Origin: Azolla caroliniana
Lineage: Eukaryota > Plantae > Polypodiophyta
Length of the DNA stretch: 64,000 nt
Assembly: GCA_043228905.1 (NCBI GenBank)
Contig: JBHGNT010000005.1
Span: forward strand, 14,384,001-14,448,000
Reading direction: 5' to 3'
Below the pieces are notes generated by a model. It worked only from the letters and a program-made list of their open reading frames with translations. It searched no databases and was not told the DNA's origin. A program made the translations under genes and the position numbers. Positions 5,870-61,740 of the stretch are shown piece by piece (within the stretch, counting starts at the first letter, position 1; every line of letters begins with the position of its first letter).

Positions 5870-5930
5870 TAGCTTAATGGTAAGCCAATTGACTCCTAAC
5901 TTGGAGGTGCAAGGTTCGAATCCTTACTTG
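5870..5930 (+). promoter_or_regulatory. tRNA-like A-box/B-box module inside the B1 LTR
   Basis: TAGCTTAATGG (5870-5880) with D-arm GCTT/AAGC; GGTTCGAATCC (5913-5923) in a T-arm hairpin. Confidence 0.75.
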
Positions 5931-6068
5931 CCCTCCTTGTATATGTAAATATGTATATATATTTATATATTTATTTATCTAGTCGTCGGACGCCGGATGC
6001 CGTCGCCGGATGCCGTCGGTTACCGGTGCCTCGCCGGATGCCGTCGGTTACCGATGCCGTCACCGGAT

Positions 6069-6368
6069 GCCGTCGGATGCCGGTGTCTCACTGGCACCGG
6101 ATGTCGTCGGATCATCGGCTCCATCGTCGGTCCGGTTTTGGTTGCCGTCGGATGCCGGTGTCTCACTGGCACCAGATGTCGTCGGATCATCGGCTCCATC
6201 GTCGGTCCGGTTTTGGTTGCCGTCGGATGCCGGTGTCTCACTGGCATCGGATGTCGTCGGATCATCGGCTCCATCGTCGGTCCGGTTTTGGTTGCCGTCG
6301 GATGCTGGTGTCTCACTGGCACCGGATGTCGTCGGATCATCGGCTCCATCGTCTGTCCGGTTTTGGTT
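6069..6368. repeat. 4 x 75-bp CCGG/TCGG-rich tandem repeat in the U3 of the B1 LTR
   Basis: Unit GCCGTCGGATGCCGGTGTCTCACTGGCACCGG...CCGGTTTTGGTT starts at 6069, 6144, 6219 and 6294. Confidence 0.95.
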
Positions 6369-6743
6369 GGCCAAAACCCTTTACGAGTAGCTAGCCCACC
6401 TCCACTCTTAGTTCAAGTTACCTTGACCTCTCTATGCTCCACACATAGACACAAAGATAATATCTTTTGCTCCACCTTATATATGATGAGAGCCGTATTT
6501 GTCGTGCCTATGTGGGATATCTCACAATTTTCTTTTTCCTTTCACAAACTTTATACCCTCATATCTTGACATTTAGTTGTCCGTTTCTCGTGTAATAAAG
6601 TGCATTCGAAACCTCCATCATTTTGTACTTAGATATTAAATTTATTTAGAATGTTATCTTCACAATTATTGTACTATGTGATTCATACTCGATTTCATAC
6701 GTTTTATGGGATTTTCACACTATTGCCGAAAATCTTCACGACA

Positions 6744-8177
6744 CCGTATTGGCACCTTCATACCAAACCTTACCCCTATCAAACAATCCACATCCGGATC
6801 GTGCTCCACCCGAATCGGAATGCCGACTAATTCCATCCCCGGTCGGGTCGACATCCGATTCCGCTCCCTTCAGTGCCGGCTCTCATTTCCCCTTTCTTCT
6901 CTATCGCGGCTCCGTCCTCGACCTCCTCGCAGGCCGTTTCCCATCCATCTTCGTTGGCATCGTGCCAGGAGTCCTTGATAGCGCCTTCCATCTCTCTGGT
7001 CTTATGCTGGCACACGGGCTTGACTGTCAGAGTCTCTAGAGTCTACGTGGAGGGTTCTTCTCCTCTCCCGACCTCCACCTTGGCCGGTCTCGCTCCACAC
7101 CCTCTCCCATGGTACCATCGTACCATTCCTCGGCCTTTGCCTGGGCCATGTCCACCTTGTCCGGAAGGCCAACTTGCTCTTAGTCTTCGGAATCCGTCCA
7201 TGTGCCGAATCTCTCTTCTTCTTCAACCATCGACTTCAGAGCCTCGTACGCTTCCCAGACCAAGGCTTCGACATCTAGCTTCGTCGATCCTTCTTGTTGC
7301 ATGCCCGCTTCCTGCCGTGATGACACGTCGTCGTGCGTTATCTTCCTTTTGCCTTTCGCGGACCACTCCTCATCCAACCGTCGGCATACTCATTTGACTT
7401 CTGACCAGTCCTCGGTAAAGCCATTCGCTCCGTCATCGTCTTCGAGCTCAATCCCAATGGCCTGCCGTTCTGTTCGGTCTATCGACCTAACGAACAACAG
7501 GACTTTGTCCGCCCCCACCAGACTTTGATCCCGTGCTGGGAGCCAAGCAAGCCACCGCTCGAACTCTCGGAACGCCGTCGTTGCACCCCGGTGGGTCTTC
7601 GTCGATGCAACCCACTGGTCGAAGTCGCGTCGTCCCCGGCTCTTCCGCCATCTTCCATATGCCTACAAGAGTGCCTCTTCGAAGGCTTCCCACGAACTAT
7701 TAGCTTCTCGGAGTTCCTTCACTTCCGCGTGCATACGAACGGCGCCGACCTGACAGAAGAACTCCAGCCTCAACGCCTTGTCCACGTCTCGCTCCTCCAT
7801 TTCTACATTATAGGCTTCCAAGTAGAATGGGACTTTGTCCCCGTTGAAACGGTCGACTCTTTCAACCACTCTCTCAATAGCTTGTTGCGTCGCTTCTCGT
7901 CTCACCACCATTCGTCTGAAATCCAAGACCACTTCAGCCACCATATTCGCGAAGTCATCGTCTTCCGATTCCATCCTCCCTTGCCGCCCTTTCACGTCAG
8001 GTTCACCAAAGTTGTTGTGGTTTTCCACAGGTACGTGATGAAAGGGGCAGAACCACGAGGGTCTCGGATGAAGAAGAGATGGATTTCGAGAAGTCGACTC
8101 CCTCCAGTCCCGGGTGCACCGGTTGTGGCGCAAACCGGTGGATTCCAGACGCGTACCGGCAGCTACCGAACACGAGA

Positions 8178-8209
<32 letters not shown>

Positions 8210-8911
8210 CCATGCGTGCAACACCGACTCAACACACGCCTCTTATATACATGAAACAAAGGGAAAGAAATGCACCCCACACCAACAGAAACACAAATAT
8301 GCACAACCTTTTATATATTTAATTACAAGAGTAAGATACAACTCCGGCTTCGAGCTAGACCAAGGTAGGTTAGGTTACAACAGTTGTCTACTGCGAAGCC
8401 GCCGATCTGGGAGCTCTCGAGCTCGTCACGCCAAGCAGAGTCTTGCACAGGAGGTCGAGCAGAAGCAAACCCCACTGAACATAGAAGCTCTTCGCTGGAC
8501 TAAACCCTAAACAGACACGAAGGAGAAGAAGAAGGTGAAAGCTGCCAAATTGAAACCCTAAACGAAATAGGGTGAAAAGACCAAAGTACAAACCCTAAGG
8601 GAATAAGAGAAAGATGAAGACCAAGAACTACCAAACCCTAAATCTAATGGTATACTCTCCTAACTCAAAATGGGCAACCCCTCTACAAGGGAGCCTCCCT
8701 TCCTTTTATAGAACAAGGAGAGGGATGCGTAACAATGTGGGATAAATTCCGATTTACATGGGATTCTCTATCCCAACTTTACTTCTACTCGACGCCATAA
8801 AGGCACCCCTATCCCCTACACTATTAGTACAAGGGTGAGTGCACATGCTCCACCCCGCCGATTCTTCCGATATACCCCGGGTTCTCACCATGGCCCGGAA
8901 TCTTCATGACA
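6744..8911 (-). mobile_element. Phygy-like Gypsy element D (5' LTR 8013-8911, tRNA-Trp PBS 7991-8008, decayed gag); host of B1
   Basis: PBS TGGTGAACCTGACGTGAA. The gag segment RFNGDKVPFYLEAYNVEM is homologous to B and C gag. The LTR has TG...CA ends and a minus-strand TATAAAA near 8705. Confidence 0.82.
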
Positions 8912-8990
8912 CAGTGCACTAAAGATCACCTAGTCGTTCCGAACCGTTCCGGTCTTCTCGACCGATCCGTGTGTCCTGACTAACCCGCGC

Positions 8991-11900
8991 TGTCGTGGAG
9001 AATGTGTTTCACGATATAAAAATGAACTTAAATATTGTTTTTAGTAGTATTTGAGAGACTTGAACCCACACCCTTATATACGAAGTACAATATACATACC
9101 ACTAAGAATGTGCTTCACAATATAAGAATGAACCTAAATATTGTATTGAGTAAAATTGAGATACTTCAACCTTCAACCTTACCTACCAAATACAAAGTAC
9201 ATACCATTAAGCTAGGTTATTTGTTTTTAAAATTATCTTTCCATCATTATACTTATCCTAGTTTATTTTCATACATGAGAGCTCAAATGAGCGAGTTGTC
9301 TATCATGCATGTACGCCAAATGGTGATCATGCATCACATGCATGTCTTGTACACTCACATGCATTGTATGCATGGGGCCAACTATAAAAAGAGTGGAAGG
9401 ATCAAGAAGAAAAAGTAAGAAATCAAATAATATAATCAAGCAAAGAAGCTTGCTCATTTGGGTAAATGTCTTGTCTCTCGGTGTTGAAATCAAGGGTTCA
9501 AATCAAGAGTCGATAAACAAAGGTTTCATCTTGCTTTCAAGCATTGTAAAGTTGGTAAAATCTTGTTTTCTTAATATAAATAATGTTCATATCAAATACT
9601 CTTGCTTCTTAAATCATACATTGTCTCTATCTTTTATCTATACTCACCTCTCACACACGCATTACTTTGTCTTCCTATCCTTAATCTTTCTAACATCAAC
9701 ATAGAAGCCTTACGAAATATATAGCCAACTTCCTTTAACCTTAGTCCCTGCGACTTCGCCGCACGAACCACAACTACCCCGACACATTTGGTGAACCCGA
9801 TGTGAAGGAGGCGACAAATGGAGGAGCAAATGAGGCTTATGTGTACGATGATGGAACGAATGTTGCAGGAGCAAGGGATGATGGCAAGCGTTGACAAAGC
9901 CGTTGACAATATTCTCGCACAAGTAGGAATCTTCGAAGGTATGAATTTAACAAAATTTCTGTAGATTTACAATGAGGAAATGCTTAAACGAGGCATCGAC
10001 GAAGCCGCAAAAATTAATAGCTTCCGTCGAGTTGTTGCGATTAGGTTACAAGAAAGGATCCTGGAGCTATAGAGGGAGCATCAGACATGGGCAACTTTTG
10101 AAAGAGAATTACTAAATGAATACAACCTCAACGATATGTCAAGGATGACAAGGCGATTTTTCATGGATTGGGTAGAGTTTGATAAATATTTAAGTGTTTT
10201 GGAAGTGTTAAAAGATTTTTCAGAAAGATTTGCGCAATTAAATGTTAGGGATAGAAATATAATATTGCTAGATAAAATAATATTATTTCTACAAGCCACT
10301 AATATTAAAGACAAGAAGGACTTGGGAATGCTTTTGGAAGATCAGAATAGTCCGAGTGGACTTACCAAAGACTGGGAGGAGGTGAAAAGGGCTTGCGCCC
10401 ATTTCTGTAAAAGAAAGTTATGGTTTATGGAGCTGTCGGAGAGGAAGGGAGACAAAACGAGGAACATCTCGGGAGAGAAGAAAATAGAAGATTCACTCTT
10501 GCATGAGTTGGTGAAAGGCATGAAAGACTTGTTGATCAAAGTGACGAAGCTAGAATTGGGACATAGTTTAACTTCGTCAAGGCAAGGAGGTGGAATGGTC
10601 CGAAGGTGTATGTGGTGTGACAATATCAACCATCAGAAGAAAGACTGTCAAGAACATAGGGATGCTCTTAATCATGATAAAGTCTATTATCAAGATGGTA
10701 AGATTCACTCGATAGAGACTCGACAACCACTTGAACTCAACTTCGAGCGAGGTGGAATGAAAAAGCTAATGGAAGATGCCTAGAGAGAATCGACTCAAGC
10801 GATACAATCTGTGGCAACCTTAGGGTTGCGTGTAGAAGACTCATATGGTGGATCTGACTTTTGGCAAGGTGTGCTGGAGTTTGCAAGAAAAGGGAAGGTT
10901 CGGGTGGATGAATTAAAAAGAGCGGGAGATGAAATATGGCACTTCACTATCAACATTCGCCCAAGTGAATGCACAAGATGTGCTAGTGGAAGAGAAGCGG
11001 AAGAGAGCTGAGGAAGTTGATCCAACAAAGAGGCATGACACATGAGAACAGAAGAGAAGGGAGATGGAAAAGGGTGCTACTGAGCCGAAGGAAATTGATA
11101 AAGTAAAAGGGAAGACAAACCCATCTTTCAAGCTTGCTTCAGACATAGAAACCACGACGGATATAAAACAAGTACTAGAGACAAGAATATTAAATAGTAA
11201 GGTAGAATTTACTTTAAGAGAAGACTTGTTGGGTATATTAAAGAAAGAATTTCATGAAGTTATCATAGATATTATTAGAAGAAAGAGACAAGTGACGAAG
11301 GAAGTTACGGAACGGTGTACAACAACCCTCTAAGATTTGTATGGTGACACACCATTAACACTGCAAGTGTAAAAAATACAAATGGTGTTGGGGTTCATGA
11401 AGGGGATAGGAGCCATTATACAAGGGACCATTGGGCTCGAGCAACAACAGAGGCACCTGCAAAAATTGGGGAGCAACAAATTCCATGTATTGCTTTGATC
11501 GATCATGGATCCGAGATTAACATGATGTCGTCGGAATTTTACGCTCAAGGACGGTGGTCGATCGATAAGAATCATGGCTGGAAGATAAGAGCTGCCACAG
11601 AGACTATGGAGGATCTATTCGGAGCATGCCCCAATATGAAGGTAACAATTGGAAATGTGTTAATGAAAATTTCTTTGTGCAGGATTGATCAACCTACCTC
11701 GTCATCCTGGGTCAACCATACATCACCGCAGTAAGGATGGAAACAAAGGTGATTGATGATGGTTCAGCTTTTGCGAGGATTAAGAGTCGAGATGGAAGAA
11801 AGACAGTCTAATTCTAAACCATGAGGCCCAACCACGAAAGAAGAGAAGAATGCTTGAGGGAACATCCAGTTCGGGAGGTGGATGAAGAATTTTCTCAAGA

Positions 11901-13200: not shown

Positions 13201-14200
13201 GTATAATTATGAGCCCGATGCAGAAGCACATATATATGCTTTCCTTACGACATGATAGGCCAACCATGTATCTCAGAGATTGTCAGAGGCCAATGCTGAC
13301 AAATCGAAAATCGTCGAATTTGGATTGTCTCTTGGGCAATCTACTAATACTCACAACATCAAGAAGGTGAGTTTGGGTATTTTAAACTTAATACCAAATT
13401 TATTAGATTGTTTCATAGACAAGTTCCATAGAGGGAACTTATGAGTCGGTTTTATGCAATATCTCAAGAAACTTGGAGATTGTACCACAATTTATAATTC
13501 GGTTTCAAAATCTTTAGAGGCAGTTAGCACGTCAACCTCCTGAAGACGATGCAAAAGAGACTTTCCTGTCTGCTCTCAGGGACCCAATTCGAACAACCTT
13601 AGAGGTGTGTTGGGATTTCGGTCCCTCCGGATGGGATGATGAAGGCCTAGTGAGAACCGGATGATGTGTACCCGGCAAGGAAGACCCGGTGAGAACCGCT
13701 CACCAGATGAAGGGACATAGATGTAAATATGTTTCTGTTAGCCCATTGTGGCTATATTTGTAAATAACCCGAATGTCATATTAGTATAAATATGACCTAG
13801 GGCAAACACTATTGTGGTGTTGTTGGTCATTCTTTGTGTTGTCAGTGTACTGTTGTACAGAACATAACAGAGAGAGAGAGATAGTGAGAGTGATTCTCTG
13901 TTGTAACCGCCTTCACGCGAAGAGAGTGAGCACGAGGTCGTTGCCTCTGTGCCCCCTGTTGTATTCTTTTGACATAGTGATAGTTTGGAGTCTGGGGGCT
14001 CCTGTGGTTTTTCCCTCTCAGGGTTTTCTACGTTAATATATTGTGTACTTTCTCTCACTTATGTGTATTCATGCATTTACCTTTCATTGCCCATTTCTTT
14101 TGTGTTTGATTATCATTAAGTGATCGAAGTCTCAGTTGTGGCCGAAGATTATTCCGCATATTCTTGTGAATCTGGTATCAGAGCGAAACGACACAGAAAA

Positions 14201-17200
14201 ATGGAAGATTTGTTGGGAGGCATGTTCAAGCTCACCGGCTCCAACTACTTAGTGTGGAAGTCGAAGATGAGGGACATGTTCGTGGTTAAGGATCTTTGGT
14301 TTCCGGTTCAGTTCAGGTACAAGAGACCGGACAAGATCAATGCCACAATATGGGAGGTGATGCACATGAAGACAACGGTGTACATACGGTGCTTCATTGA
14401 CATGAGCTTGTACAACAACTTTAATGAGGAAAGCAAGGCTCATGAGCTCTGGGAGAAGATCGCCATTATATTTCAGAACAAAAATGTTGTTAATCAGGTT
14501 TTGGTATTTCAGAAGTTGGTGAGGCTTCGGTACCAGGACGGCTCCAGTATGGCGGAGCACATGAATGCCTTCCAGGGGCTGATTCACCAAGAAACCTTGT
14601 TGGAAGTACCTCTCGCTGATGAGGTACTTGCTCTACTCCTGCTTGGTTCCCTCCCGGATAGTTGGGAGACATTAGTTGTCACTTTGAGCAACACCGGGCT
14701 GAAAGGAAAACAGTTATCCCTAGCAAGAGTCAAGTTGAGCTTGCTAGATGAGGAGGCGCGTCGGAAAGACAAGGATACGATCTCCAACTCCAAAGCGCTC
14801 CTTACCGAATTGGAACGCAGAAGACAAAGGAACCGTAGTACCCAGAACCGGGAAAAGTCGGGGACACGGTCAAAGTCAAGGGGGAGGCCTACTTGCTTCT
14901 ATTGCAGCAAGCCGGGACACTTCTAGAAGAACTGTCGGCACTTCTGTAAAGACAAGGAAACTGATAGTACTGATTCGAAGCAGTCACCGGGCCGGAACGG
15001 TAAAGACCGGAGGGAACCGGACCGGAAGGGAACGACGGCAATCGCGGCAACTGAAGAAGAGTTGATGCTTATCACCGAGGAGAGTGAGTTAAACCTTGCC
15101 GGCGACGAGACACCGTGGGTTGTCGATTCCGGAGCGTCGTTCCACCTGACCCCAGACCGGAAATGCTTCTCATCCTATATAGCTGATGAGCACGGCTATG
15201 TCTGTATGGGAAATGAAGGGACATGCCAAATTATCGGCATAGGATATGTGTTGTTGACGACATCAACCGGATGCAAGCTACTGCTAAAGGATGTCCGACA
15301 CGTTCCGGAGGTTCGCCTGAACCTAATATCAACCGGTTGGCTAGACGATGAAGGCTACACGGGTAGCATCCGGAACCGAGTCATGAAGTTCAGCAAAGGG
15401 AGCCTAATAGTGGCTCGGGCCCGGAAAGTCAACACTCTGTACCTAATGAATGCCCGGTTATGCCCGGAAGAAGTGAACGTTGCATCCGACGTTGTCGATG
15501 AGCTGTGGCACAAGAGACTGTGTCACATGAGCGAGAAGGGGATGAAGAGGCTTACCAATGACAATCTCATTCTGGTGAAAGACGTGCATCTTGAGAAGTG
15601 CACCGACTGCCTGGCCGGTAAGCAAAACCGGACCTCCTTCCGCTCAAGGCTACCGATGAGACATAATCCACCATTGGAGCTGGTGCATACTGATGTGTGT
15701 CAAGTGGACACGAAGTCACATGCCGGATCACAGTACTTCGTGATGTTCATAGATGACCACAGCCGGAAACGGTGGCCACACCGCTGAAGACAAAGGATCA
15801 AGTGTTATCCATCTTCAAGGAGCTCCACGCGAGAGTGGAAAGAGAAACCGGTCGGAAGCTGAAGGCGGTTCGAGCAGATAACGGAGGAAAATAGCGGGGG
15901 CAGTTCGAGAAGTACTACTGCTTGAAGGGAATCCGGCTCGAATTTACCGTGCCGAAGATGCCGGAACTCAATGGGCTGGCCGAGAGGATGAACCGGACCA
16001 TAATGGAGAGGGTCCGGAGTATGCTAGCACATGCCAAGTTAGCCAAGACGTTTTGGGCTGAGCCACTAACGACAACGACATACATGATAAACAGATCACC
16101 CTCAGTACCCTTGGACGGAAACACGCCGCAAAGAGTGTGGACAACTGTCACAAAATGTGAATGTCAAGCTTTGAACTCATGACCTTCAAACAATGGTCTT
16201 ACACTTCAACCATTGCACCAACTCATTTTCATTAATAAATAGATTTTCATATTATTATTATTCAAGAACTCTAGAGCACTAGACACATTAGATGACCGTC
16301 AAATGGCATGCACCCTGTACGCCAAGTGGCGCACAACATGTATGCCAAATGGTGATCATGCACATTCTGATGTACAGTATATAAGTCGAAGATCTACTTA
16401 GTGTTGAACCGTTCCGGTTCAACACCAGTCTTCAGCAACCTTGTAATCTTGGTTTCCGGTAATAGAAATTCTTGTATTTTTGTCTTGTAAACGTCTTCTC
16501 GTTTGTTATTATCTTCTTTTCTTCCAAATCAACCTTGTCTTCGAAGCTTGGGTCGCGACAACAAATAAGGAAGTGTCTTACCGGCATCTGAAGGTGTTCG
16601 GGCGTCTCACTTACGTGCATGTTGCAAAGGACCGGAGAGCAAAGTTGGATCCAAAGTCCCGGCCATGCATATTCCTCGAATACGGAGATGATGAGTTCGG
16701 CTACCGAGTGTGGGATCCGGTCGACAAGAAGGTTTTCCGGAGTCGAGATATTATCTTCATGGAGGACAAGACCCTTGCCGACTGGGAGTCAGAGAAGAAG
16801 ATAGTGAACTCCAAGTCAACCGGTAAGGATTGGTTCGATGAGATTCGGACCTACCCGGGTAAGAGTCGGTTGACACTCGAAGAACCGGCTGGTTACAGAG
16901 AGGACACCGAACCAGCAGAAGAAGAAGAGGAAGCAGAAACCGGAATCGGCGAAGATCCCGAATCAGATTCGGATGAAGAACAAACAGAGTAGCCGTTTGC
17001 CGGAAACCAAGGACGCAGATATCCTCTCAGAGAGAGAAGGTTCCCCTGGAGATTTCCGGATCCAGAGCATGTACTGCTAACCGATGAGGGGGAGCCAGAA
17101 AGCTTTGAAGAAGCTAAGAGAGACACCCACAGCCGCAAGTGGTTGAGTGCCATGTAGGACGAGATGGATTCCCTACATGAGAACCACATGTATGAATTGG

Positions 17201-20830: not shown

Positions 20831-22699
20831 TGTGGATTCTTTTCAACAATAGCGTCATTTTTTGGAGGGTTCTTCCCAACAAATTATTGTCTACAATGAT
20901 CACAAAAATAACATACTTCCAAAATGCTCAAGTCTTAAGTCGTTGACAAGCTCCTTGGGCGCAATTCTTAACTCATTTTTATTTCATAATTCTATATTGC
21001 CCTGGGATGCAACAAGGAAAAGCATATGCTTTATCTCAACGTTCGTATATGCAACTTCAACCATGAGAGGCTGCATTTGAAAGTTAGAAGCAAATCCTCT
21101 TAGGTCTTGATCATCTACAACTAATGACAAATCATACTATAAACACACCTAGAGATTCAAGTCTTCTTGATTCCATTCGGGAACCATATTATCCCATATT
21201 GTGCTTCCTGCTCATAATCTCAAAATCCTCGTCAAGACTACACCAACTTCAATTGGCATGATGGTTTACTTTTTCGGCAAAATCTCTTGTATGTGCCTGA
21301 CGGTCCTTCTCGACTCCAAGTCTTGCAACAATGTCATGATACACCAATGTCTAGACATTTCGGTATCCACAAGACTTTCGAGTTAATTTCTCGACGATGT
21401 TGGTGGCCGTGACTTCGTCATTTTGTTATGGATTATGTTCGTAATTGTGATACATGTCGTCAATCAAAAAAACCTCAACATCATCCATATATGGCTTATT
21501 ATAGCCAATGCCTATTCCTAAGAGCCCATGGAAATCTATTTCATTGGACTTCATTACGGATCAACCACCTTCCACGGGTTTTGATTCTATTCTCATGGTA
21601 GTAGATCGTTTTACGAAGATGGCTCATTTTCTTCCATGCACGAAAGCTATTACTAGCCAAGAGACAGCCAATTTACTCATGCGGGAGGTGTTTCGGCATC
21701 ATGGTCTTCCATATGATATTATCAATGATCGGGGTACCCAGTTCTATCTCAAAATTTTGGCGGCATATGTTCAAACTCTTACATACTTCTTGCAAACTCT
21801 CTTCTGGCTACCATCTAGAAACTAACGGGCAAACTCAATGCACCAACCAAACAGTAGAGCAATATCTTCATTGTTTTGCCAACTATCAACAAGATGATTC
21901 GGTTGATCTATTACATTTGATGGAATTTTCTTATAACAACTTAGAACATTCTTCTACTAGATATTCTCCATTTTTTGCAACCATCGGGTACCATCCTCAT
22001 TGGACAATGCTTGACCATCCCGAACTCCCAACAACCTGGCTGCTAAAGATCGACTCACTTGACTCCAAGAAATTCAGGATATCCTTTCGCATCATTTATG
22101 TGATGCTCAAAACACTCAAAAGAAGGTTGTCGACCATTATTGACATGATTCATCGACTACGTTTTAAGTGGGAGATTGAGTATAGCTCTTACAAGGTAGC
22201 ATTAAAACCACCATACCTTGCTACAATCTGGATTAGCAACGTTTTGGCCCATATATGATCTCTGGTAATGTCAATGATGTGGCATTTCGCCTTGATCTTC
22301 CTCCTTATATGTGTCTTCACCCAGTCTTCCATGTTTCACTTTTGGAGCCCTAAAAGGGGGGGATAATGTCATGAAGACATACATTTTGGTTTACAAGGAT
22401 TTGAACCCACAACTTCTTGGTCTATGTGTTAAACCTTTAACCATTATAATAACATATATCATATATAATTTATATTATTAGTTATTATAAGATATTTAGA
22501 ATATTCTAGAACATTCTAGAATATTCCATGTTTATCTTAAATAGCATAAATATCTAAAATATTCTAGAACATTCTAGAATACTCCATAAGGACCTATAAA
22601 TAGGTGTCTATTCATTCATCACAACTCATTCGGTTCAACACCAATATTCACCCCTTAGCCTACTCTTTGTAACCCTTGTTCTCTTATAATACAAACTCC

Positions 22700-23822
22700 T
22701 TCTCTTGAATGTGTGGAAAACTTCAAATATCTTGGCCTTGAGGTTCCTTCAAATCATAGATGGAATGAATGTGCTACACGCCGCTTAGAGGCGGGTAAGC
22801 GAGCATACTATGCATTTGAGAACACATGCAATCTTGGAGATATTAAGTGTTGGGTCCTCAAGAAATATCTTTTCGACACTTTGGTGACACCGGTTCTTCT
22901 CTATGGGGTGGAAGTATGGGGCGGTAGCATCCCTAAATCTATGTGGAAAGAGTTTGAAAATGTCCAAAAACATTTTCTTACAAAGTTTCTACAAGTTAAG
23001 AAACAAACTCCCTACACCCTCCTCCTCCTTGAGACGGGATCGCTTCCCATTGAGATCATGGCCATGGAAAGGGTTGTTGAATACATGCTTAAGGTTCAAA
23101 AAAGTCCCTCACATCGACTTCCTAGAATTGCATGGGAAGCAAGCAAAAAGATCCAAAAGACGCATAAAAGCAAAATTTTGTGTTCCGGTTGGATGCAAGA
23201 TATAGAAAAATGGTTTGGTAGATGGGATGCGAGACACTTGCTTGATGATGCATCATTAGATTCCTCTGTAAATGAGGCCTTTTTGCAATGCCAATGTATC
23301 ATGACATGGGACAAATGTGGAGGCTCACGCTTCACACATTATACTACACATGTTGCACCTAACTACAAAACCATATTCTTTGCGGAACGGGGAAATCGTA
23401 CACATCGATCCATGTTAGAGCCCATACCGTTATCTGTCATTCGAACCATTGCTTCCATGCGACTTAGCTCACATGCATTGCGATGTGAAACAGGGCATTG
23501 GGGCACAAGTGATGAGAGTGGTCGGGCTATGCACACTTTTCCCTAAACAAGTTCGTGAGTCTGAGTATCACACTTTGATACAATGCTCTACCTTTGATCA
23601 TATTCGACCATGCTTTCCACATCTCTTCAACCGAGCCCAATCTTCGCATGAATTCCTCTCACAACCACAATGTGCACTCTCGATTGCAACATTCATTGGT
23701 AAAGTTCTTGAACATCGAGAGTCACTACTCACTTTCACACGTATCACGTGAAATGTAATATTTTTGGTCTCATAGGTCATATTTGACCTCCGAAGACAAT
23801 AATATAATCTATCTATCTATCT
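22700..23822 (+). mobile_element. 5'-truncated non-LTR retrotransposon (RTE-X/CR1-group-like ORF2 C-terminus) with a (CTAT)n tail
   Basis: FKYLG, LFDTLVTPVLLYGVEVWG, RLSSHALRCETG and ESEYHTLIQC motifs; ends in tandem CTAT repeats. Confidence 0.8.
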
Positions 23823-37400: not shown

Positions 37401-37890
37401 AAGAACTACTAGCGGTCCGGATACAACAACTAGAGGGAAGACCGGAAGACATAGCGGAAGCAACACGCCGACAACAAGAAGCGCAATTCCGGAACAAATG
37501 CCGATTCGACACAAAGCATCGACTACGTTCGCGGAAGATTGAAGAAGGAGATTGGGTGATTGTCTATGACAGTAGTCTGGATCATCAACATACAACGATA
37601 CGGCGAATAATGAGCATCGGGAACTTCGGCACATACTGGAGGATGTGCGAGTTTGGGGGGGGCGAGTGTCGTAGTGTAATTCGCACACTACGTGAAAATT
37701 GTATTTTGGTTCCTCCGGATGGGACAAGGAGGAACCAGTAAGGACCCGATAAGAAGAACCGGTGAGAACCGACAAGGAGGACCCGGTAAGAACCGGATCA
37801 AGCAAAACCGGCAGCCGGATAAAGAAGGCCGGTGAGAGTCTCTCACCGGATGAAGAGACAAATTTGTAAATAGAAAAAAATATTGTTACG

Positions 37891-37954
37891 TGCATAGGAC
37901 AGGATTCGACCCTATACCTCCACGTAGACAAGCCCCAACCTTACCATTGTACTA
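37891..37954 (-). promoter_or_regulatory. tRNA-like A/B-box module in the E LTR
   Basis: Minus strand TAGTACAATGG...TAGGGTCGAATCCTG. Confidence 0.6.
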
Positions 37955-38310
37955 ACTTATCTTAAGTGCTTTAAATACAGATTTAATATATATAAGACCT
38001 TTATTTACACCTACCTTTATTAAAAAGTAAGTCATGCATTTTTAGAATCTAGCAAGAATGAGCACTATATTTAGGAAATAAAGCATAGTGTAAAAAGCAA
38101 CTCATGCACATTTAGTGTGCATGAACACTTTAGAAAAAGCATGAAGCTACACTTAGCCTCTTCCATCCTTATATAAGGAGGAGAGACGGATGTATGGGGT
38201 TGTTGATTACTTACAAGGATTGATCAATCTAATATATTCGTGGGATTCACGAGTTTATCATCAAAATTCTCTTTCTTACTATCTAAATATTGATTAAATA
38301 CACTAAACTC

Positions 38311-39045
38311 GTGGGATTCACGAGATTCGTAACTAGTCTTATATTGTATTCTTCTTTCTCCTAGTCCAAAACCTCAGTGGTTCCCACCCGACTCAGGCAA
38401 CGATCCGCAGCCAAAAGGCACGACAACATCAATGTGGATGATGATGAGATGGTGCAAATATGCCTCGGCTTCCTTGCACCACGATTCGGCGCGATGCGGA
38501 CCGCCGTACTAGCACGGGAGAATCCACCCTCCTTCTTCGATCTTCAATCTATGTTGTGGGATTCACGAGATTCATAACTAGTCTTATATTGTATTCTTCT
38601 TTCTCCTAGTCCAAAACCTCAGTGGTTCCCACCGGACTCACGCAACGATCCGGAGCCAAAAGGCACGACAGCATCAATGTGGACGATGATGAGATGGTGC
38701 AAATATGCCTCGGCGTCCGTGCACCACGATTCGGCACAATGCGGACGGTTGTACTAGCACGGGAGAATCCACCCTCCTTCTTCGATCTTCAATCTATGTT
38801 GTGGGATTCACGAGATTCATAACTAGTCTTATATTGTATTCTTCTTTCTCCTAGTCCAAAACCTCAGTGGTTCCCACCCGACTCACACAACAATCCGGAG
38901 CCAAAAGGCACGACAGCATCAATGTGGACGATGATGAGATGGTGCAAATATGCCTCGGCGTCCTTGCACCACGATTCGGCGCGATGCGGACCGCCGTACT
39001 AGCACGGGAGAATCCACCCTGCTTCTTTGATCTTCAATCTATGTT
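38311..39045 (+). repeat. 3 x 245-bp tandem repeat spanning the E LTR end / F gag junction
   Basis: Units start GTGGGATTCACGAG at 38311, 38556 and 38801. Confidence 0.95.
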
Positions 39046-45480: not shown

Positions 45481-45492
45481 TATGGGGATGTT

Positions 45493-54372: not shown

Positions 54373-54840
54373 TGTCGTGAAGATCCGTCACTACGCATGG
54401 ATCGTGAGGCGGAACCGCCGGGGTTCTGGACCGGAAGGATTCAAAGTCGGTACAAGCTTTGCCGCAAGCTTTAGCAAGAAAGTACTTAAGATAGATTGGG
54501 AAAGAGAGAAGTTGAGATTACACGTTTGAGAGAGATTGATTGAACTTTTAACTTTAGATTTAAGAAACAAGTTACACGATCAATTTGATAACGAATTTCT
54601 TCCTCTTAATTTTCATAAAAAAAAAACATGTTTTTTCTCCTCCCCCTTCCTTCTTTTATAGATGCTCTCATGCATATGATGCATGTGAGGGTACAAGACA
54701 TGCATAAATTGCAGGTTTGCCATTTGGCGCTTATGTATTACATGTGGTGCATGATAACCATGTCACTCATTTTAGCTCTCATGTATGAGAATTTACATGT
54801 AAAAGTACAATGATAGAAATATAATTTTAACTAAATAGCA

Positions 54841-54900
54841 TGGCTTAATGGTAAGCCAATTGACTCATAACTTGGAGGTGTAAGGTTCGAATCCTTACTT
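54841..54900 (+). promoter_or_regulatory. tRNA-like A/B-box module in the B2 3' LTR
   Basis: TGGCTTAATGGTAAGCCA hairpin, CTCATAA, and GTAAGG-TTCGAAT-CCTTAC. Confidence 0.8.
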
Positions 54901-55499
54901 CCCCTCCTTGTATATGTATATTTGTATATATATTTATATATTTATTTATATAGTCGCCGGATGCCGTCGGTTACCGGTGCCTCGCCGGATGCCATCGGTT
55001 ACCCGTCTCCATCGCCGGTCCGGTTTTGGTTGGCCAAAACCCTTTACAAGTAGCTAGCCCACCTCCACTCTTAGTTCAAGTTACCTTGAACTCTCTATGC
55101 TCCACACATAGACACAAAGATAATATCTTTTGCTCCACCTTATATATGATGAGAGCCGTATTTGTCGTGCCTATGTGGGATATCTCACAATTTTCTCTTT
55201 TCTTTTCACAAACTTTATACCCTCATATCTTGACATTTAGTTGTCCATTTCTCGTGTAATAAAGTGCATTCGAAACCTCCATCATTTTGTACTTAGATAT
55301 TAAAAATGTTATCTTCACAATTATTGTATTGTGTGATTCTTACTCAATTTCGTACGTTTTATGGGATTTTCACACTTGCCGAAAATCTTCACGACATCCA
55401 CCCCCACCAAACCGCACGTCCTCCGGTACGTGCCAAGAAGAGAGGAAGTGAGATTTCGGCTACGATGATCAATTAGATTCCTCCATGTCTTCATTTTCA

Positions 55500-58400
55500 T
55501 CCAGCCTATTATGTTCATTGTCGAGGTAATCGAGGTCAGGATCCTTGTCTTGTCTTTTCTTGAAAAATCTTTACTCTTTTTCCCGCAATGGGTACGGCCA
55601 ACCTTGATCCGTCTAGTTCTGTAAGGTGGTATGTGGCATTATCGTTGGCACTTGTCACCACATACGGCCCGAACCATCTTCTTGCAAACTTCCTTGTTGT
55701 ACTGTGTTGATTGTCAAGGGTGCTGTCGTAAACCAAAACCCAACCCCCTTCTTCAATCTTCTTGGGACGAAGTTGATGCGTGTTGTCGAACCGAACTTTG
55801 TTCTTTACTCGGGCTGCCTTCATCATCTTTCACGCTTTTTCTAAATCTTCAGGTCTTCTTTCAAGTTGCCTTATCCGCGCCGCTAATAACTCTTCTCGGC
55901 TCATCTCGTTCTCCCACGGTATCGCTACCCATGAGGCGATCGTCCTTTCGATGGGCATAATCGGCTTTTGTCCATACATAAGCTCCGTCGGCATATACCC
56001 TGTCACCGAGCTATGTGTCGTTCTATCGGCCCATAAGGCATAGGGTAATAGTCGTGGCCAATTCCCGACTCGACCGTTGCATGCCTGTACGATGGCTTTA
56101 ACGATAGGTCCATGCCCTCGCTCGATCTTCCCATTTGCTTCCGGATTGTAGGCAGTCGTGAGGGAGAGCTTCACGCCTAGTCTTTCGAAGAGCTCCGTCG
56201 CTTCGTGCACGTCCAACTCCCCTCGGTCGGCCACTATCTTCCCTACACATCCATATCGGCAAACAACATCTTCAACTAAAAATTTACAAATAGCTGAAGT
56301 CGTCTTATTTGTCAAAGCTCGTCCTTCCACTTGATTTGTCAAGTCTTCCCTTGCCAGCACTTAGTACTTCATTTGTCCCACTCCCATTGGCATCGAGATC
56401 AGATCCACCATCCATTTGAAGTGTATGGTGAGTGGGTATGTCGGCTTTAACTCATCACGATGACATATATTTGAATATACTTGGCAAGTTTCGCATGTGG
56501 ACACGAAATGGAGTACATCTTTGTACATGCTTGGCCACCAGTACTTCTCCTTCAACTTTTCGAACGTCGCCCATGTTCCTCTATGACCTGCCCAAGCACT
56601 CTCGTGGAATTCGGTCATCAGCGTCTCTTGCTCTTCTTTCTTTACCACCACTCGACGTGGTATTCCTGTCCTTCTTTTTGGATGTCGCCAAAGGAATCCT
56701 CCCTTCAAGAAGTATCGGTTTTCAGATTCGTAGGGCCTCCTCCTTTGTCAACGAAGCATCTGTCGTCAATGTTCTTAGGAATCTACCGATGAGTAACCAC
56801 TCTCCTTCGTACTCGTTCTCGTTGAAGGCGTGGAGGGTTTGCGTGTCCTGGTCTTCCGCCGACAATCGAGCCATCTTGAAGAAGTCGAGGGTGACATCTT
56901 CATCTTCCGAAACCATGTTACTTCCATTTGAAAATCTTGCCCTTGACAGCATGTCAGCCATGGCGTTCTTCTTCCCTGCGATGTGACGGATCTCTAGGTT
57001 TAAAGACTTGATGTAGGCGATCCACCTTAGCATAGCAAGATCTGGGGTCGCACATCCCGAGACCATTCCGAGAATTGGGAGACAATCTGTCTCTATTATC
57101 ACTTCTGACCCGATCAGGTAATCTTTGTCTGTCTTCACTGCCGACACAATACCCCAAAGTTCCCGCTTGACTTGGGCATATCTTTGTTGCCGTTCGCTGA
57201 GAACCTTTGCTCCGAACCGGACGGCATATCGCGCATTATCTTCACCTTCTTGATTGATGACCCACCCGATTCCGGTTGGGCTCGTATCTACGGTCACGTA
57301 AATTTGTTTCCCTTCGACATAGTCGGCCTTCCTTAGTGTCGGAGCTTCAAGAAGCAGTTTCTTTAATCTTCGCATCGCCTTTGTGTGCTCGTCTCGCCAT
57401 TCGAACTTTATTCTTTTCTTTAGTAGTCCATATAACGGTTCGGCGACATGAGCGTAGTGAGGAATCCATATATGATAAAACGCGCACACTCCAAGGAACC
57501 TTCGAACCTCCGTTTGGTTTTCGCATTCTTCTTTCATGTCTTGGATTGCGTTCACTTTGGATGGCGAGGGCTTCCGGCCGTATGCTCCACACAAGTGACC
57601 TACCACCAAGATCTCTAGTTGCCCGAATGCAGATTTTTCTCCTGAAAATGTCAAATTCGCATCTTCAAGCCTTTGAAGCACCTTCTCGCAATCTTTCATA
57701 TGATCCGCAACGAACTTTCTACAACCTTCCTTATCTTTCGATTCATCTTTCTCCTCACCCGAACATCCTTTTATCGGAATATCATCCAAGAATGGCATCG
57801 TGATGTCCGGAATGCAATCCTTCAAGACTTTATTCATGGCATTCACCATATGAGCCACCGAATTCGTTGCGCCTTGGGGTAAGGTACACATCCGCACAAG
57901 CCCAATCGGAGTCCTCATGGTTGTAATGTCCCGACTGTCGATCGCCAATTGGAATTGGTCATATCCGGAGTAGAGATCGCCAATGGAGTAGATGGACCAG
58001 CCCGCAAACGCTTCGGCAAATTCGTCCACGCTCGGACCGATTCCGGCATTTCGAATTGTCACCTTGTTGACGGGTTGAAGATCTTGGATGAATCGCAATG
58101 ATCCATTCTTCTTCGGCACCGTGAACCACCTATTGGAATAAGGAGCATTCGACGGTTCTAGAATTCCCATACTCACCTTGTCCTTTAAGAGCTCGATCAG
58201 CTTCGGAAGGTGTGCTCTCGGTACCGGTATCGGTTTCAAATTGCAAGGCACATGAGGCACCGTGAAGATCACCATCGGCTCTATAACCTTTGGGTCGGCG
58301 CATCCGATTTCTCGTGGGAAGAATGCGAAAGCCTTCCCATGTCTCTCAAGCATATCGCGAAACATTCGCTCCTCTTCAGGGAGAAGGAAATCCTCCTTTC

Positions 58401-58950
58401 CAACTCGTAGCTTCCCCTTCGTCTCTTTGGTGAAGACATGACCTATCTTCTTCGGATCTCTTAAGCTTGGATTGTTAGTGACTTCCTTCATCTTTTGCCA
58501 ACTATCTTCCGGTAGCGGAACCGCAACTAGCTTGATCTTCTTACCCACCGTTTTATATTTCGTGTTGATGTCAGCTTCCTTCATCGAGATGCCACGACGG
58601 TATTCATCGATGATAGCGTACATGTTGACGGAGTTAACCGAAATCACGCGTTGGTTGTGAAGATAGCTCAAGTCCACGACGTCCTCGATTTCGCCGATGG
58701 TGTCGTTAAATGAGGCTTCTTCCATAATATGAGTCACGAACTCTCCTTCTTCTATTATGTTCTCTTCTTTCAGCATCTTCTCGAATTCTTGTATCCGGCG
58801 CTTGTACTTCTTGTCGGGTAGTACTAGTTTACATGCGCCACTAGGTGTGACACATGTTGCTTCTCCTTGCAATCCACGCACTCTTCTTTCTTGTGGGGTC
58901 TTGTGATTGCTCGGACTATTTGTGCCCCATGCTTCAATAGTCCGCTCTAA
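55500..58950 (-). pseudogene. pol: pol (RT-RNase H-integrase) of B2
   Basis: 719-aa ORF with DLYSGYDQ, PFLDD and VTVDTSPTG; HHCC zinc finger and IVADRGELD/EANGKIERG integrase motifs; few lesions. Confidence 0.93.
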
Positions 58951-58956
58951 AAATCC
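58893..58956 (-). promoter_or_regulatory. Predicted -1 frameshift signal (G GAU UUU + pseudoknot), element B2
   Basis: GGATTTT TAG; stem CGGACTATT/AATAGTCCG; loop TGGGG pairs with downstream CCCCA; the -1 frame is open into RT. Confidence 0.8.
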
Positions 58957-61145
58957 GAGGATTCACCTCCGAGACTATCTCGATTCCTTTCATGATTGGC
59001 TCGCACCGTTAGGAATTGGACCGATCTTTGGTTGTCAAGACTCTTTATTCGTGCGAAGGCTGCTCCATTATCGAACACTCTGGTCTCCATCCGAGATGAT
59101 GTGATATAAGGTTGCCCTAGGATGATAGGATGCGACACCGATTCTTGTACGAAGAAGTGTTGATCCATCTCCACATCCCCGATCGTGACTTTGACATTGG
59201 GACAAGCTCCGTACAAATCCTCCGTAGACTTTGTTGCCGCGCGAATCTTCCATCCGTGGTTTGTATTGATTGGCCATCTTCCTTTTTTGTAGAAGTCGGT
59301 TGACATGAGGTTGATCTCCGAGCCGTGGTCGATCAAGGCTACCACGGTCTCTTTCTTCTCCCCGATCTTCACCCGCGTCTCCGTTGTCGCTCGTGCCCAA
59401 TGAGGTCGAGTGTAGTGGCTGTCCACCATATCTTCATTGATTTCGTCTCTTGCCATCGTTATGGCATTCGTTTTTGCTTTTTGTGGCTTCTCTTCTTCCT
59501 CGTCCGATTGTTGTCTCTTTCTCTTTACAAGGTCCACGATCGTGTCATGGAACTCCTTCTTCGTAATGCCAAGCAATTCCCTCAAGGACAAAGTTACGTG
59601 GCTATCAAGAACTCGTTCTTCGAGAATCTTCTTTAGGTCCGTCGTTTGCTCTATGTCCGACCTTAGCTTATAGGTAGGTATAGTCCTTGTCCTCCGAGTG
59701 GGGTCTTCGACACCAACCTTCACGGGCCGAACCGTTTCTTCAACACGTATGCTCGGCTCCCCTTTTCGGCTTGATTCTCATTCCTCCGTTTGTAAAGGTC
59801 GACTCATCTCCGCATCGTCTTTCTTTTTCGCGTTCCTTGTTTCATGTCTTTTTGATGGGCCTTGCTCTTGTATTCTCTTTCTCTTTTCTTCGACGAACAC
59901 CTCATGGTTGTCGCACATCACCTCTGCGAGTATGGTGTTGTCGTCCACCGGATCAGACCACCCGGTTATGCTTTGCACACTTCGGTCCGCAAGCTCTACC
60001 TCGTTCGATGTGACTTTTCCCTTCTTCTCATATTCGAGAACGGAAGTCCAAAACTTTGCTCCCGCTCTAGCAGCTTCAGTCTTGTCTTTCCCGACTCTTA
60101 TTCCGGCCGACGCAGCATAGTGCATCGCATCCACATGAGTCGCATCGGCATCCTCCATAGATTTCTTCATTCCTCCTCTTCCGAAATTCACCCGTAGGGG
60201 TCTTCTAGTCTCGCTTGAGCAGATCATGTTGTCCTCTATGTATACGATATTTTGTCGAATCGCCTCTCGAAGGCTCGCACAATCCCTTCTCATGTGGTCC
60301 ATGCTATCGCACCACACGCATCTAAAGGGTTCTTTTCCTTTAGGGCCCCGACGATTCATGTTGGCTAGCATGACCTTCTCGAACTTCTTCGCTAGCTCTT
60401 CAATGATGTCGTCATCAATCTTCTTTTCTTCCACGTTACTTTGTCTCAGCGGCTCAGCTACTTTCGGCGGTCTTGCTTTCTCCGTGGTAGTCGGTCCCGT
60501 CAAGTCGGTGTCATCAACCCATTGGCGACGCTTGTCGAGCCTATTGCATGCCCGCTTCACCGCGATCTAGTCTGCTATGAGCCCATTTGCTTGGGTATCA
60601 TCTTCGAGAAGAGTCCCCAACTCCCGTCTATCCTTTATGTCCACGGCCTTCAAGAAGTACAAAGTTTTGTCCTCTTCAAGCAACACTTGGTCCGTATTGG
60701 GGAGACGACTAAACATCTGGTCGAATTCGTCGTACACCCTCGAGACGCTCATCTTCTTATTCTTCTTCTCTATCCACTTCATTAGGGCATGTCGAGTCAT
60801 CCTCGTAGAGTCTTCAGTCATGAACTCCGCTAGTATCGTTTTCTCGAACTCAGACCATGTTGTCTTACCTTCTTAAAGCTCGATGACGCGTCTTTGGATG
60901 TTGTTGGCGATAACTCTCTTGAAGCTTGCGATTTGATGTGCCTCGGACACGTCCCTCTGATTCATCTCCCTTCTATATGCATCAAGGAACTTCGTAACGT
61001 TCCTTCCATCGAATTGGCCCTCGAGCTCCACGACACGATCGACAGCCTTCTCCACGCTCGCGTCGTTGTCCCGAGATCTCATCATTTGCTCGACGATTAG
61101 CATCATCCTTTCGAGCTCTCCTGCTTGGTTGCTTGAGGACGCCAT
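58947..61145 (-). pseudogene. gag: gag-protease of B2
   Basis: CVWCDSMDHMRRDC knuckle; YKLRSDIE...LSLRELLG block; LIDHGSEIN; stops at 60875 and 60569. Confidence 0.88.
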
Positions 61146-61680
61146 CTCCAAGTATTAATCTCGACTTGATCCTTCCTACCGCCTCTTTCACGTCGGGTTC
61201 ACCACTTTATTATGTCGTGAAGATCCGTCACTACGCGCGGATCGTGAGGCGGAACCGCCGGGGTTCTGGACCGGAAGGATTCAAAGTCGGTACAAGCTTT
61301 GGCGCAAGCTTTAGCGAGAAAGTACTTAAGATAGATTGGGAAAGAGAGAAGTTGAGATTACACGTTTGAGAGAGATTGATTGAACTTTTAACTTTAGATT
61401 TAAGAAACAAGTTACACGATCAATTTGATAACGAATTTCTTCCTCTTAATTTTCATAAAAAAAAAACATGTTTTTTCTCCTCCCCCTTCCTTCTTTTATA
61501 GATGCTCTCATGCATATGATGCATGTGAGGGTACAAGACATGCATAAATTGCATGTTTGCCATTTGGCGCTTATGTATTACATGTGGTGCATGATAACCA
61601 TGTCACTCATTTTAGCTCTCATGTATGAGAATTTACATGTAAAAGTACAATGATAGAAATATAATTTTAACTAAATAGCA

Positions 61681-61740
61681 TGGCTTAATGGTAAGCCAAT
61701 TGACTCATAACTCGGAGGTGCAAGGTTCGAATCCTTACTT
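61681..61740 (+). promoter_or_regulatory. tRNA-like A/B-box module in the B2 5' LTR
   Basis: TGGCTTAATGG (61681-61691), GGTTCGAATCC (61724-61734), T-run near 61781. Confidence 0.8.

What the first reader, a model, noticed from the sequence alone, without database searches (positions are those of the whole stretch)
5870..61740. tRNA-like Pol III promoter modules built into LTRs of several different families, always antisense and upstream of the TATA box
Seen: an A-box and B-box at tRNA spacing occur in U3 of family B (5870-5930, 54841-54900, 61681-61740: TGGCTTAATGG...CTCATAA...GGTTCGAATCC). They also occur in C (two tandem copies, 9053-9214), the solo LTR (16163-16220: TGGTGCAATGG...GAGTTCAAAGC), the Tcn1-like LTR (22395-22452: TTATAATGG...GGTTCAAATCC) and E (37891-37954: TAGTACAATGG...GGGTCGAATCC). 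In each case the module is on the strand opposite the LTR's own TATA and 5' of it. The boxes and T-arm are kept while the acceptor and anticodon stems are not, and the spacer sequences differ between families. Established: A/B boxes recruit TFIIIC/Pol III, tDNAs act as chromatin barriers, and Cassandra TRIMs carry 5S sequences in their LTRs. Inference: these elements carry a tDNA-mimic as an insulator/anti-silencing module or as an outward-firing Pol III unit. I do not know of a description of this in plant LTRs.
Basis: partly seen in the sequence, partly recalled or inferred. Interest (0 to 1): 0.85.

Follow-up and report, generated by a model that had tools for sequence, protein, structure and literature searches.

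The report
tRNA promoter cassettes inside retrotransposon LTRs
Several protein-coding jumping-gene families of a probably fern- or moss-type plant carry a worn copy of a tRNA gene's two promoter boxes about 100-220 bases from their own TATA box, facing either way, which likely lets the tRNA transcription factor TFIIIC keep that promoter open, although binding is untested.

Summary
The modules are real. Five hits with at most 1 mismatch to the A+B consensus occur against 0.015 per shuffled window. The C and solo-LTR copies are weaker (3-4 mismatches). All lie in U3, antisense, 144-216 nt from the LTR's TATA, in class-I tRNA register.

In 80 relatives fetched by integrase alone, 14 modules lie in 103 kb downstream of pol and 0 in 133 kb upstream. 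12 of 49 readable 3' LTRs carry one.

'Always antisense' fails: three lineages carry it sense. C and one relative also have a sense module downstream of TATA. B, C and E are one Gypsy lineage, not independent cases. Between B and C the box cores stay 81-89% identical with fixed 32-nt spacing, while the anticodon arm is about 25%.

Best reading (0.45): a cis TFIIIC site protecting the Pol II promoter. Rivals: neutral relic (0.27), small Pol III RNA (0.17). No binding or RNA data. Closest known: Helenus TRIMs, which are non-coding. The scan noted similar LTR modules on other, probably fungal, DNA.

The parts
5870..5923 (+). tRNA-derived A-box/32-nt/B-box module in LTR B1 (antisense to the element)
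   Evidence: 0 mismatches; LTR 5407-6743 on minus strand, TATA near 5694
5407..6743 (-). LTR B1 (non-chromovirus Ty3/Gypsy), followed on the minus strand by a PBS-like TGGTGAACC
9056..9109 (-). Module C2 (A box damaged, B box nearly intact)
   Evidence: 4 mismatches
9161..9214 (-). Module C1 (A box intact, B box damaged)
   Evidence: 3 mismatches
9450..9505 (+).
   Evidence: nhmmer E=0.002; 4 mismatches, gap 33; worn homologues in L003 and L007
8991..9784 (+). LTR C (5' LTR, PBS-like TGGTGAACCC follows)
16167..16220 (-). Module in the solo LTR
   Evidence: 3 mismatches, gap 32
16146..16560 (+). Solo LTR inside a copia integrase; 5-bp TSD with one mismatch; TATA 16378
22397..22451 (-). Module in the 3' LTR of the distant ('Tcn1-like') Gypsy element, gap 33
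   Evidence: 1 mismatch; RT-RH 23-27% to B/E
22367..22720 (+). 3' LTR of the Tcn1-like element (right end approximate); TATA 22595
37902..37954 (-). Module in LTR E; this copy lacks one base of the B box
   Evidence: 1 mismatch, gap 31; added A in other copies
37667..38425 (+). 3' LTR of element E; TATA 38170; 5' part homologous to a copia LTR
54841..54894 (+). Module in LTR B2 (3' LTR)
   Evidence: 0 mismatches; Rfam tRNA 13.3 bits, below the gathering score of 29
54374..55397 (-). 3' LTR of the gag-pol element B; proximal TATA near 54660
61681..61734 (+). Module in LTR B3 (5' LTR)
   Evidence: 0 mismatches
61214..62089 (-). 5' LTR of element B, cut at 62089 by another element; 578 of 587 aligned bases identical to B2

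Best explanation
These LTRs carry a tRNA-derived A-box/B-box cassette in U3, about one nucleosome from their own TATA box and in either orientation, which likely acts as a DNA-level binding site for TFIIIC (with or without TFIIIB/Pol III) that would keep the element's Pol II promoter open and hinder silencing from spreading into it. SHOWN: tRNA register, fixed 31-33 nt spacing, kept box cores, position, both orientations, two distant Gypsy lineages, extra copies that bracket the TATA in C and L074. INFERRED: capture from tRNA or a tRNA-type SINE at least 2-3 times; spread between families by U3 exchange; selection acting in replicating source copies only. UNTESTED: TFIIIC binding, Pol III transcription, any effect on chromatin or transposition.
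For: (1) Enrichment in relatives chosen by integrase only: <=2-mismatch modules 14 in 102,825 nt downstream of pol versus 0 in 132,980 nt upstream (two of the 14, L028 and L034, are not U3 modules). 11 of 49 readable 3' LTRs score <=3 versus 1 of 560 shuffled strands, plus L018, whose contig ends in the B box. (2) B-type versus C-type modules, aligned through their shared promoter block: invariant A-box positions 0.89, B core 0.81, positions 44-47 0.92, but anticodon arm 0.24-0.25 and positions 63-73 0.18, with the 32-nt gap unchanged, while the promoter block is 74% identical with indels. (3) Distance from the module's near edge to TATA: 144-216 nt in the window, 155-197 nt in six antisense loci, 150-161 nt in three sense loci, about 96 nt in L016. 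(4) Orientation by lineage: 7 antisense, 3 sense; S. pombe tDNA barrier activity is orientation independent (PMC2040200, abstract). (5) B-box C56 intact in 10 of 10 modules from contigs of coverage >=6.9 versus 3 of 7 at coverage <=5 (Fisher p=0.015; coverage read from contig names, cut-off chosen after seeing the data). (6) Family E: no polymorphic site >=5% at 37925-37948 versus 12 of 57 in the flank (p=0.015). (7) Different D-loop types and gaps (32 vs 33) point to more than one donor placed at the same site (inference).
Against: No binding, RNA or chromatin data exist here. 37 of 49 readable related LTRs and 9 of 14 LTR clusters, including the largest (21 loci), lack the module, so it is dispensable. 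Among 8 B-type orthologues the boxes (0.83, 0.82) are no more conserved than the spacer (0.81-0.96), although above the flanks (0.61-0.76). In family B contigs the A box and first 19 spacer positions vary as often as the upstream flank (6 of 30 vs 9 of 36, p=0.77); the B box was not testable there. In family E, A-box G10 is changed in 30-65% of depth, and the tool's majority line for 17 clipped contigs implies C56 to T in the B box. Non-promoter tRNA features (U33, A37, variable-loop AGG) are also retained, as expected of a relic. Each C copy has one broken box. The plant barrier review cites TFIIIC/tDNA barriers only for yeast and animals in the passages seen (PMC9540200). Cross-family box conservation is partly circular because modules were found by their boxes. 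Nearly all loci come from one series of assemblies.
Confidence: 0.45

Rival explanations
1. Neutral relic: tRNA or tRNA-type SINE pieces entered U3 a few times and ride along on promoter cassettes that families exchange; box likeness between families only reflects that all tRNAs share the boxes and spacing.
For: Whole module about evenly conserved in B-type copies; non-promoter tRNA features kept; broken boxes in C, L002, L005, L007 and possibly much of E; 37 of 49 related LTRs lack it; U3 mosaics are common here (E shares its 5' part with a copia LTR); a free tRNA-like repeat occurs outside LTRs (L021, L028).
Against: No TSD or A-tail around 9 of 10 modules tested (the one shared repeat is the C tandem junction); similar distance to TATA in both orientations and two distant lineages; no indel between the boxes while the anticodon arm is randomised; CpG resolved to the tolerated CA in 4 of 4 high-coverage lineages (p=0.06); local multiplication in C and L074.
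Confidence: 0.27
2. Independent Pol III gene: the module makes a 70-110 nt RNA (3' hairpin, then oligo-U) and the RNA is what matters, as a decoy or small-RNA precursor, like the Pol III miRNA cassettes in foamy-virus LTRs.
For: B-type modules keep a hairpin joining tRNA positions 45-52 to 66-73 (most pairs kept in 7-9 of 9 sequences), followed at once by T6-T7 in L005, L007 and L029; E folds a similar hairpin with different letters (z=-2.7). Precedent: PMC3993851 (passages).
Against: Covariation for the cloverleaf does not exceed shuffles (44 of 500); the B-type hairpin has no pair changed on both sides; no strand preference in folding (module strand lower z in 18 of 29, mean -1.37 vs -1.19); the hairpin is not seen in C, Tcn1-like, L010 or L074 modules; no T4 within 66 nt in 12 of 29 modules listed, B1 and B2 included.
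Confidence: 0.17
3. Landing pad: TFIIIB/TFIIIC on the module attracts integration of other retroelements just upstream, as tRNA genes do for Ty3 (lead from earlier scan notes on fungal DNA).
For: Intact boxes could recruit the factors; the window is a nested cluster.
Against: The insertions mapped in the window are not just upstream of an A box (B3 is cut 355 nt beyond its B box); no clear LTR end was seen by eye in the 45 nt upstream of the 29 modules listed, L047 being unclear. Not tested statistically.
Confidence: 0.05
4. Helenus/Cassandra-type use: Pol III makes the element's genomic RNA from the LTR module.
For: Sense modules exist (L010 family, L016 insert, downstream modules in C and L074); the L016 insert is non-coding with a ~210-nt interior.
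Against: Most modules are antisense; the LTRs have TATA boxes; element B spans 7.7 kb with gag-pol; T4 runs follow sense modules within 24-26 nt.
Confidence: 0.04

Closest known systems
Helenus (TRIMp3), Kojima 2024, PMC10886601 (text parts 1-5 of 6, figure legends, supplement passages seen)
   Same: [quoted passage not shown] The paper also says 'not a few' Repbase LTRs hold part of a tRNA, but analysed only TRIMs.
   Different: Helenus is 311-1263 bp and non-coding, and its module is proposed to make the genomic RNA (the Selaginella and wasp LTRs seen read sense). Here the carriers encode gag-pol, keep a TATA promoter, and hold the module mostly antisense in U3. The paper expects autonomous partners to use Pol II and not to share long LTR stretches with TRIMp3.
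Cassandra TRIM (5S-derived Pol III promoter in LTR); PMC10853983 (passages), PMC10886601
   Same: Pol III internal promoter captured in plant LTRs; present in ferns.
   Different: 5S type, non-autonomous, drives the element's RNA; Cassandra-like TRIMs have a TATA instead of the module, whereas here both coexist.
tDNA barriers and ETC sites (S. pombe cen1 tDNA-Ala, PMC2040200 abstract; S. cerevisiae ETC4/ETC6, PMC3395662 abstract and passages)
   Same: [quoted passage not shown]
   Different: Host chromosomal elements with shown TFIIIC binding; not carried by a retrotransposon; not shown in plants in the review passages seen (PMC9540200). The ETC 10-base B-box extension was not tested here.
Foamy-virus LTR Pol III miRNA cassettes (PMC3993851, passages)
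   Same: A/B-box Pol III units inside the LTR of an autonomous retroelement that also uses Pol II.
   Different: They make defined pre-miRNA hairpins with terminators, shown experimentally; here the sequence is tRNA-derived, structure is not shared across families, and no RNA is shown.
Phygy/Selgy non-chromovirus and Tcn1 Ty3/Gypsy clades (Neumann 2019, PMC6317226, passages)
   Same: B, C and E are compact non-chromovirus-like elements with relatives named from Riccia, Adiantum, Calypogeia and Ceratopteris.
   Different: Clade membership was not tested against the reference set; the passages seen mention no tRNA-like U3 module.

Membership tests
Helenus / TRIMp3 | tRNA-like sequence with boxes A and B in the LTR | tested here: met
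Helenus / TRIMp3 | Short, non-coding element (about 0.3-1.3 kb) | tested here: not met
   Element B spans 54374-62089 with RT, RNase H and integrase regions; C, E and the Tcn1-like element also encode pol parts
Helenus / TRIMp3 | Module placed to transcribe the element (sense) | tested here: not met
   All upstream modules in the window are antisense and a TATA is present; sense cases in relatives are followed by T4 within 26 nt
Helenus / TRIMp3 | Pol III transcription | not testable with these tools
   No RNA holder listed
Functional tRNA gene | Full cloverleaf at tRNA-model threshold | tested here: not met
   ARAGORN 0 genes; Rfam tRNA 13.3 bits vs gathering 29; acceptor stem 31% paired
tRNA-derived SINE insertion | Flanking TSD and A-rich tail | tested here: not met
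   No shared >=7-mer around 9 of 10 modules; A-runs of 1-5 in 9 of 10; old insertions could have lost them
tRNA-derived SINE insertion | Free copies of the same family outside LTRs | tested here: inconclusive
   A tRNA-like repeat lies outside LTRs in L021 and L028 but is not hit by the module profile; no genome was held
tDNA barrier / ETC site | Intact B-box core, with or without A box | tested here: met
   B family, Tcn1-like and high-coverage relatives; broken in some copies
tDNA barrier / ETC site | Orientation independence | tested here: met
   7 antisense and 3 sense lineages at similar distance from TATA; comparative only, not a functional test
tDNA barrier / ETC site | TFIIIC occupancy and barrier or insulator activity | not testable with these tools
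   Needs ChIP/CUT&Tag and reporters
LTR Pol III small-RNA cassette (foamy-virus type) | Conserved hairpin plus oligo-T terminator | tested here: inconclusive
   Present in some B-type copies and E, absent in others; no covariation
Phygy clade (B, C, E) | Placement in the reference RT-RH-INT phylogeny | not tested
   Only homologue names and a DUF4100 hit
Tcn1 clade (element ending at 22367) | Tf1/Sushi-type pol with chromodomain | tested here: inconclusive
   Closer to Ty3 RT than to B/E by score (different programs); the PPT follows the integrase end directly, so no chromodomain is seen

The most novel reading that the evidence does not exclude
Protein-coding Ty3/Gypsy retrotransposons of a non-seed plant have repeatedly captured tRNA promoter boxes and use bound TFIIIC to flank or bracket their own Pol II promoter as a self-carried chromatin barrier against host silencing: a mobile tDNA-type insulator, traded between distant retrotransposon lineages, and a first tDNA barrier in plants.
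Probability: 0.3. Interest if true: 0.85.

Novelty: new variant of a known kind. Interest (0 to 1): 0.6.

Why it matters
Known plant transposon defences against silencing are mostly proteins or small RNAs (recalled). A cis element borrowed from tRNA genes would be another route, and it would make an open question testable: whether TFIIIC/tDNA barriers work in plants. Sister families with and without the cassette, and with it in either orientation, are natural controls. Thousands of dispersed A/B-box pairs could also draw TFIIIC and confuse tRNA/SINE annotation in large non-seed-plant genomes. If the module is neutral, it remains a marker of U3 exchange between distant LTR lineages.

Tried and rejected
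No whole genome is held, so no genome-wide counts. Rfam over the window gave no tRNA hit; small stretches gave tRNA 13.3 bits for B2 and no tRNA hit for L074 or L028. Relaxed ARAGORN is too noisy (40 calls at ps80). Three scans of viral contigs found nothing. No RNA holder was listed, and the one guessed RNA run laid had no contig on LTR E: no evidence either way. B-box variation in family B could not be read because contigs are cut at the AT-rich tract. The donor tRNA is unresolved: phage blastn gave weak tRNA-Arg/Asn hits (E>=0.2), and the loop is CCT in most B copies, not CAT. A phage-tRNA PWM was planned but not built. Pfam typing of the Tcn1-like integrase tail was not obtained. In one search the fixed-register pair counts are invalid for rows with offset -45 and were not used. 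The stricter geometry was set after seeing the hits and misses E. Rejected: functional tRNA gene; recent SINE insertion; Helenus membership; fixed antisense orientation; five independent origins. Not found in print: searches (open-access library only) listed no report of A/B-box modules in U3 of protein-coding plant LTR elements; Repbase entries and subscription papers were not seen.


Full report
Setting. The window is a nest of copia and Ty3/Gypsy elements. Named relatives of the B reverse transcriptase and E integrase come from Riccia, Adiantum, Calypogeia and Ceratopteris, so the host is probably a non-seed land plant. No genome is held. The B LTR is abundant in DNA runs of coded organisms A and B and in leaf metagenomes.

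Observation. With a recalled consensus (A TRGYNNARNGG, B GGTTCRANYCC, gap 28-38), the window has 5 hits at <=1 mismatch: B three times, Tcn1-like and E. 200 local dinucleotide shuffles give a mean of 0.015 and a maximum of 1. C1 and the solo LTR score 3 mismatches and C2 scores 4, which is chance level on score alone (18 observed at <=3, mean 5.5, max 13), but they have the 32-nt gap and the same place. All are antisense, 144-216 nt upstream of the TATA. No copia LTR scored carries one. They are not tRNA genes: ARAGORN finds none and Rfam tRNA scores 13.3 bits. They are in class-I tRNA register: in 17 aligned modules G18, G19, G45, G46, G53, T54, T55 and A58 are invariant with no gap between the boxes. 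Pairing is 72% in the T-stem, 68% in the D-stem, 56% in the anticodon stem and 31% in the acceptor stem; covariation does not exceed shuffles (44 of 500).

B, C and E are one lineage (RT 67-75% identical); only the Tcn1-like element is distant (23-27%). B and C share the promoter block up to the A box (74% over about 200 nt), and C shares 26 nt with the solo LTR. The CAT loop is a minority allele. C holds a further, sense module downstream of its TATA at 9450-9505, so its promoter is bracketed by outward-facing modules.

Relatives chosen without regard to the module. An alignment of integrase C-termini fetched the best 80 of 228 confirmed metagenome loci, nearly all from one series of assemblies. 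Modules at <=2 mismatches number 14 in 102,825 nt downstream of pol and 0 in 132,980 nt upstream. A 3' LTR start was found in 56 of 80 loci, and 49 had more than 200 nt. Of these 49, 11 score <=3 (8 antisense, 3 sense) against 1 of 560 shuffled strands; L018 is a twelfth, cut in its B box. Five of 14 LTR clusters carry it; the largest cluster (21 loci) does not. Sense modules upstream of TATA occur in the L010/12/13/18 family, in a non-coding element inserted in L016, and, worn, in L037. L074 has two antisense modules and an extra B box upstream, and a near-perfect sense module downstream. By lineage the upstream count is 7 antisense to 3 sense. The near edge lies 150-197 nt from the TATA in nine loci and about 96 nt in L016.

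Tests of constraint, for. Between B-type and C-type modules the invariant A positions are 0.89 identical, the B core 0.81 and positions 44-47 0.92, while the anticodon arm is 0.24-0.25 and the 32-nt gap is unchanged. A recombination between two tRNA-derived pieces in register would give the same picture. C56 is intact in 10 of 10 modules from contigs of coverage >=6.9 and in 3 of 7 at <=5 (p=0.015, cut-off post hoc), as expected if boxes are kept in multiplying lineages and decay at CpG after insertion. In family E contigs, 37925-37948 has no polymorphic site against 12 of 57 in the flank.

Tests of constraint, against. Among 8 B-type orthologues boxes and spacer are equally conserved (0.82-0.83 vs 0.81-0.96; flanks 0.61-0.76). 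In family B contigs the A box plus first spacer part varies like the flank (6 of 30 vs 9 of 36); the only A-box change is at the tolerated purine, and the B box could not be read. In family E, G10 of the A box is changed in 30-65% of depth, and the tool's majority line for 17 clipped contigs implies C56 to T. Most sister families do without the module.

Mechanism. Either orientation, an inconsistent terminator and no strand preference in folding argue against an antisense RNA and against a promoter for the genomic RNA. Fixed spacing, kept box cores, a similar distance to the TATA and local multiplication fit a DNA-bound factor. In yeasts, tDNAs and B-box-only ETC sites block heterochromatin, and the S. 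pombe barrier works in either orientation (PMC2040200 abstract; PMC3395662 passages). I therefore favour a TFIIIC site that keeps the LTR promoter open (0.45). Binding and its effect are untested, and repression of the neighbouring Pol II promoter by a tRNA gene, known from yeast (recalled), is not excluded. A neutral relic (0.27) is the main rival. A small Pol III RNA (0.17) rests on a hairpin and T-run in B-type and E modules. Landing pad (0.05) and Helenus-type use (0.04) have little support.

Comparison with what is known. Kojima 2024 describes tRNA-like A/B boxes in LTRs of non-coding TRIMs, including one Selaginella family, and notes that other Repbase LTRs hold tRNA parts (part 6 of the text not read, supplement seen only as passages). 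The present carriers fail the TRIM size and coding criteria. Foamy viruses carry Pol III units in their LTRs (passages). Cassandra uses a 5S promoter in place of a TATA (passages). A plant barrier review cites TFIIIC only for yeast and animals in the passages seen. Nine searches of the open library listed no report of this arrangement in protein-coding plant elements; Repbase reports and subscription papers were not seen. Earlier scan notes report tRNA-type boxes in LTRs on other, probably fungal, DNA; these are unchecked leads, and nothing matched this sequence.

Verdict. A real, tRNA-derived, patchily distributed U3 cassette, new as a variant of known LTR-borne Pol III modules. Function is plausible but unproven. 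Interest 0.6.

Noticed in passing
window 26199-26220 and 30321-30342; 31975-31996 and 42842-42863: The first 20 nt of copia LTR H form a perfect 6-bp hairpin with a T-loop-like TTCGATT loop on the antisense strand, without a good A box; copia LTR D has a worn version.
   Followed up: partly
window 16416-16426 and about 22633-22643: The solo LTR and the Tcn1-like LTR share a 20-nt block with a B-box-like GGTTCAACACC about 38 nt after the TATA, sense, with no room for an A box.
   Followed up: partly
window 37703-37872 vs 13615-13729: The 5' part of Gypsy LTR E is homologous (69-82%) to the 5' part of a copia LTR: U3 exchange between superfamilies.
   Followed up: partly
window 55100-55260; L072, L076: LTR B is composite: a second TATA-bearing block upstream of the module is shared with L072 and L076, which lack the module and the proximal promoter.
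   Followed up: partly
L021 3390-3590; L028 3040-3270: A tRNA-like repeat outside LTRs, next to microsatellites, keeps an acceptor-like stem and seems to be followed by a second, inverted tRNA-like unit; possible SINE or donor.
   Followed up: partly
L016 1852-3346: Non-coding element with 1.2-kb LTRs, a ~210-nt interior with PBS and PPT, and a sense module about 96 nt before its TATA.
   Followed up: partly
window 8825-8878: Perfect A box, antisense and upstream of a TATA in an LTR fragment (8383-8990), but no recognisable B box (4 mismatches).
   Followed up: no
window 5865-5880: B1 lacks 5 nt that B2 and B3 have at the start of the A box, yet still reads as a consensus A box.
   Followed up: no
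window 54840-54898 (-): Weak Rfam hit to 'Plastid-ycf2 5UTR' (E=0.12); that model reads like the reverse complement of a plastid tRNA-Ile (recalled), a possible donor hint.
   Followed up: no
window 20339-20829 and 38311-39050: Two unrelated tandem duplications with the same 245-bp period; the second includes the end of LTR E.
   Followed up: no
window 45492-46359: Fold-back element with ~300-nt inverted arms (85%) and an internal 194-nt direct repeat.
   Followed up: no
window 49061-49971: AT-rich palindromes next to an ORF with a zf-C17orf113 domain (E=7e-14); probably a DNA-transposon remnant.
   Followed up: no
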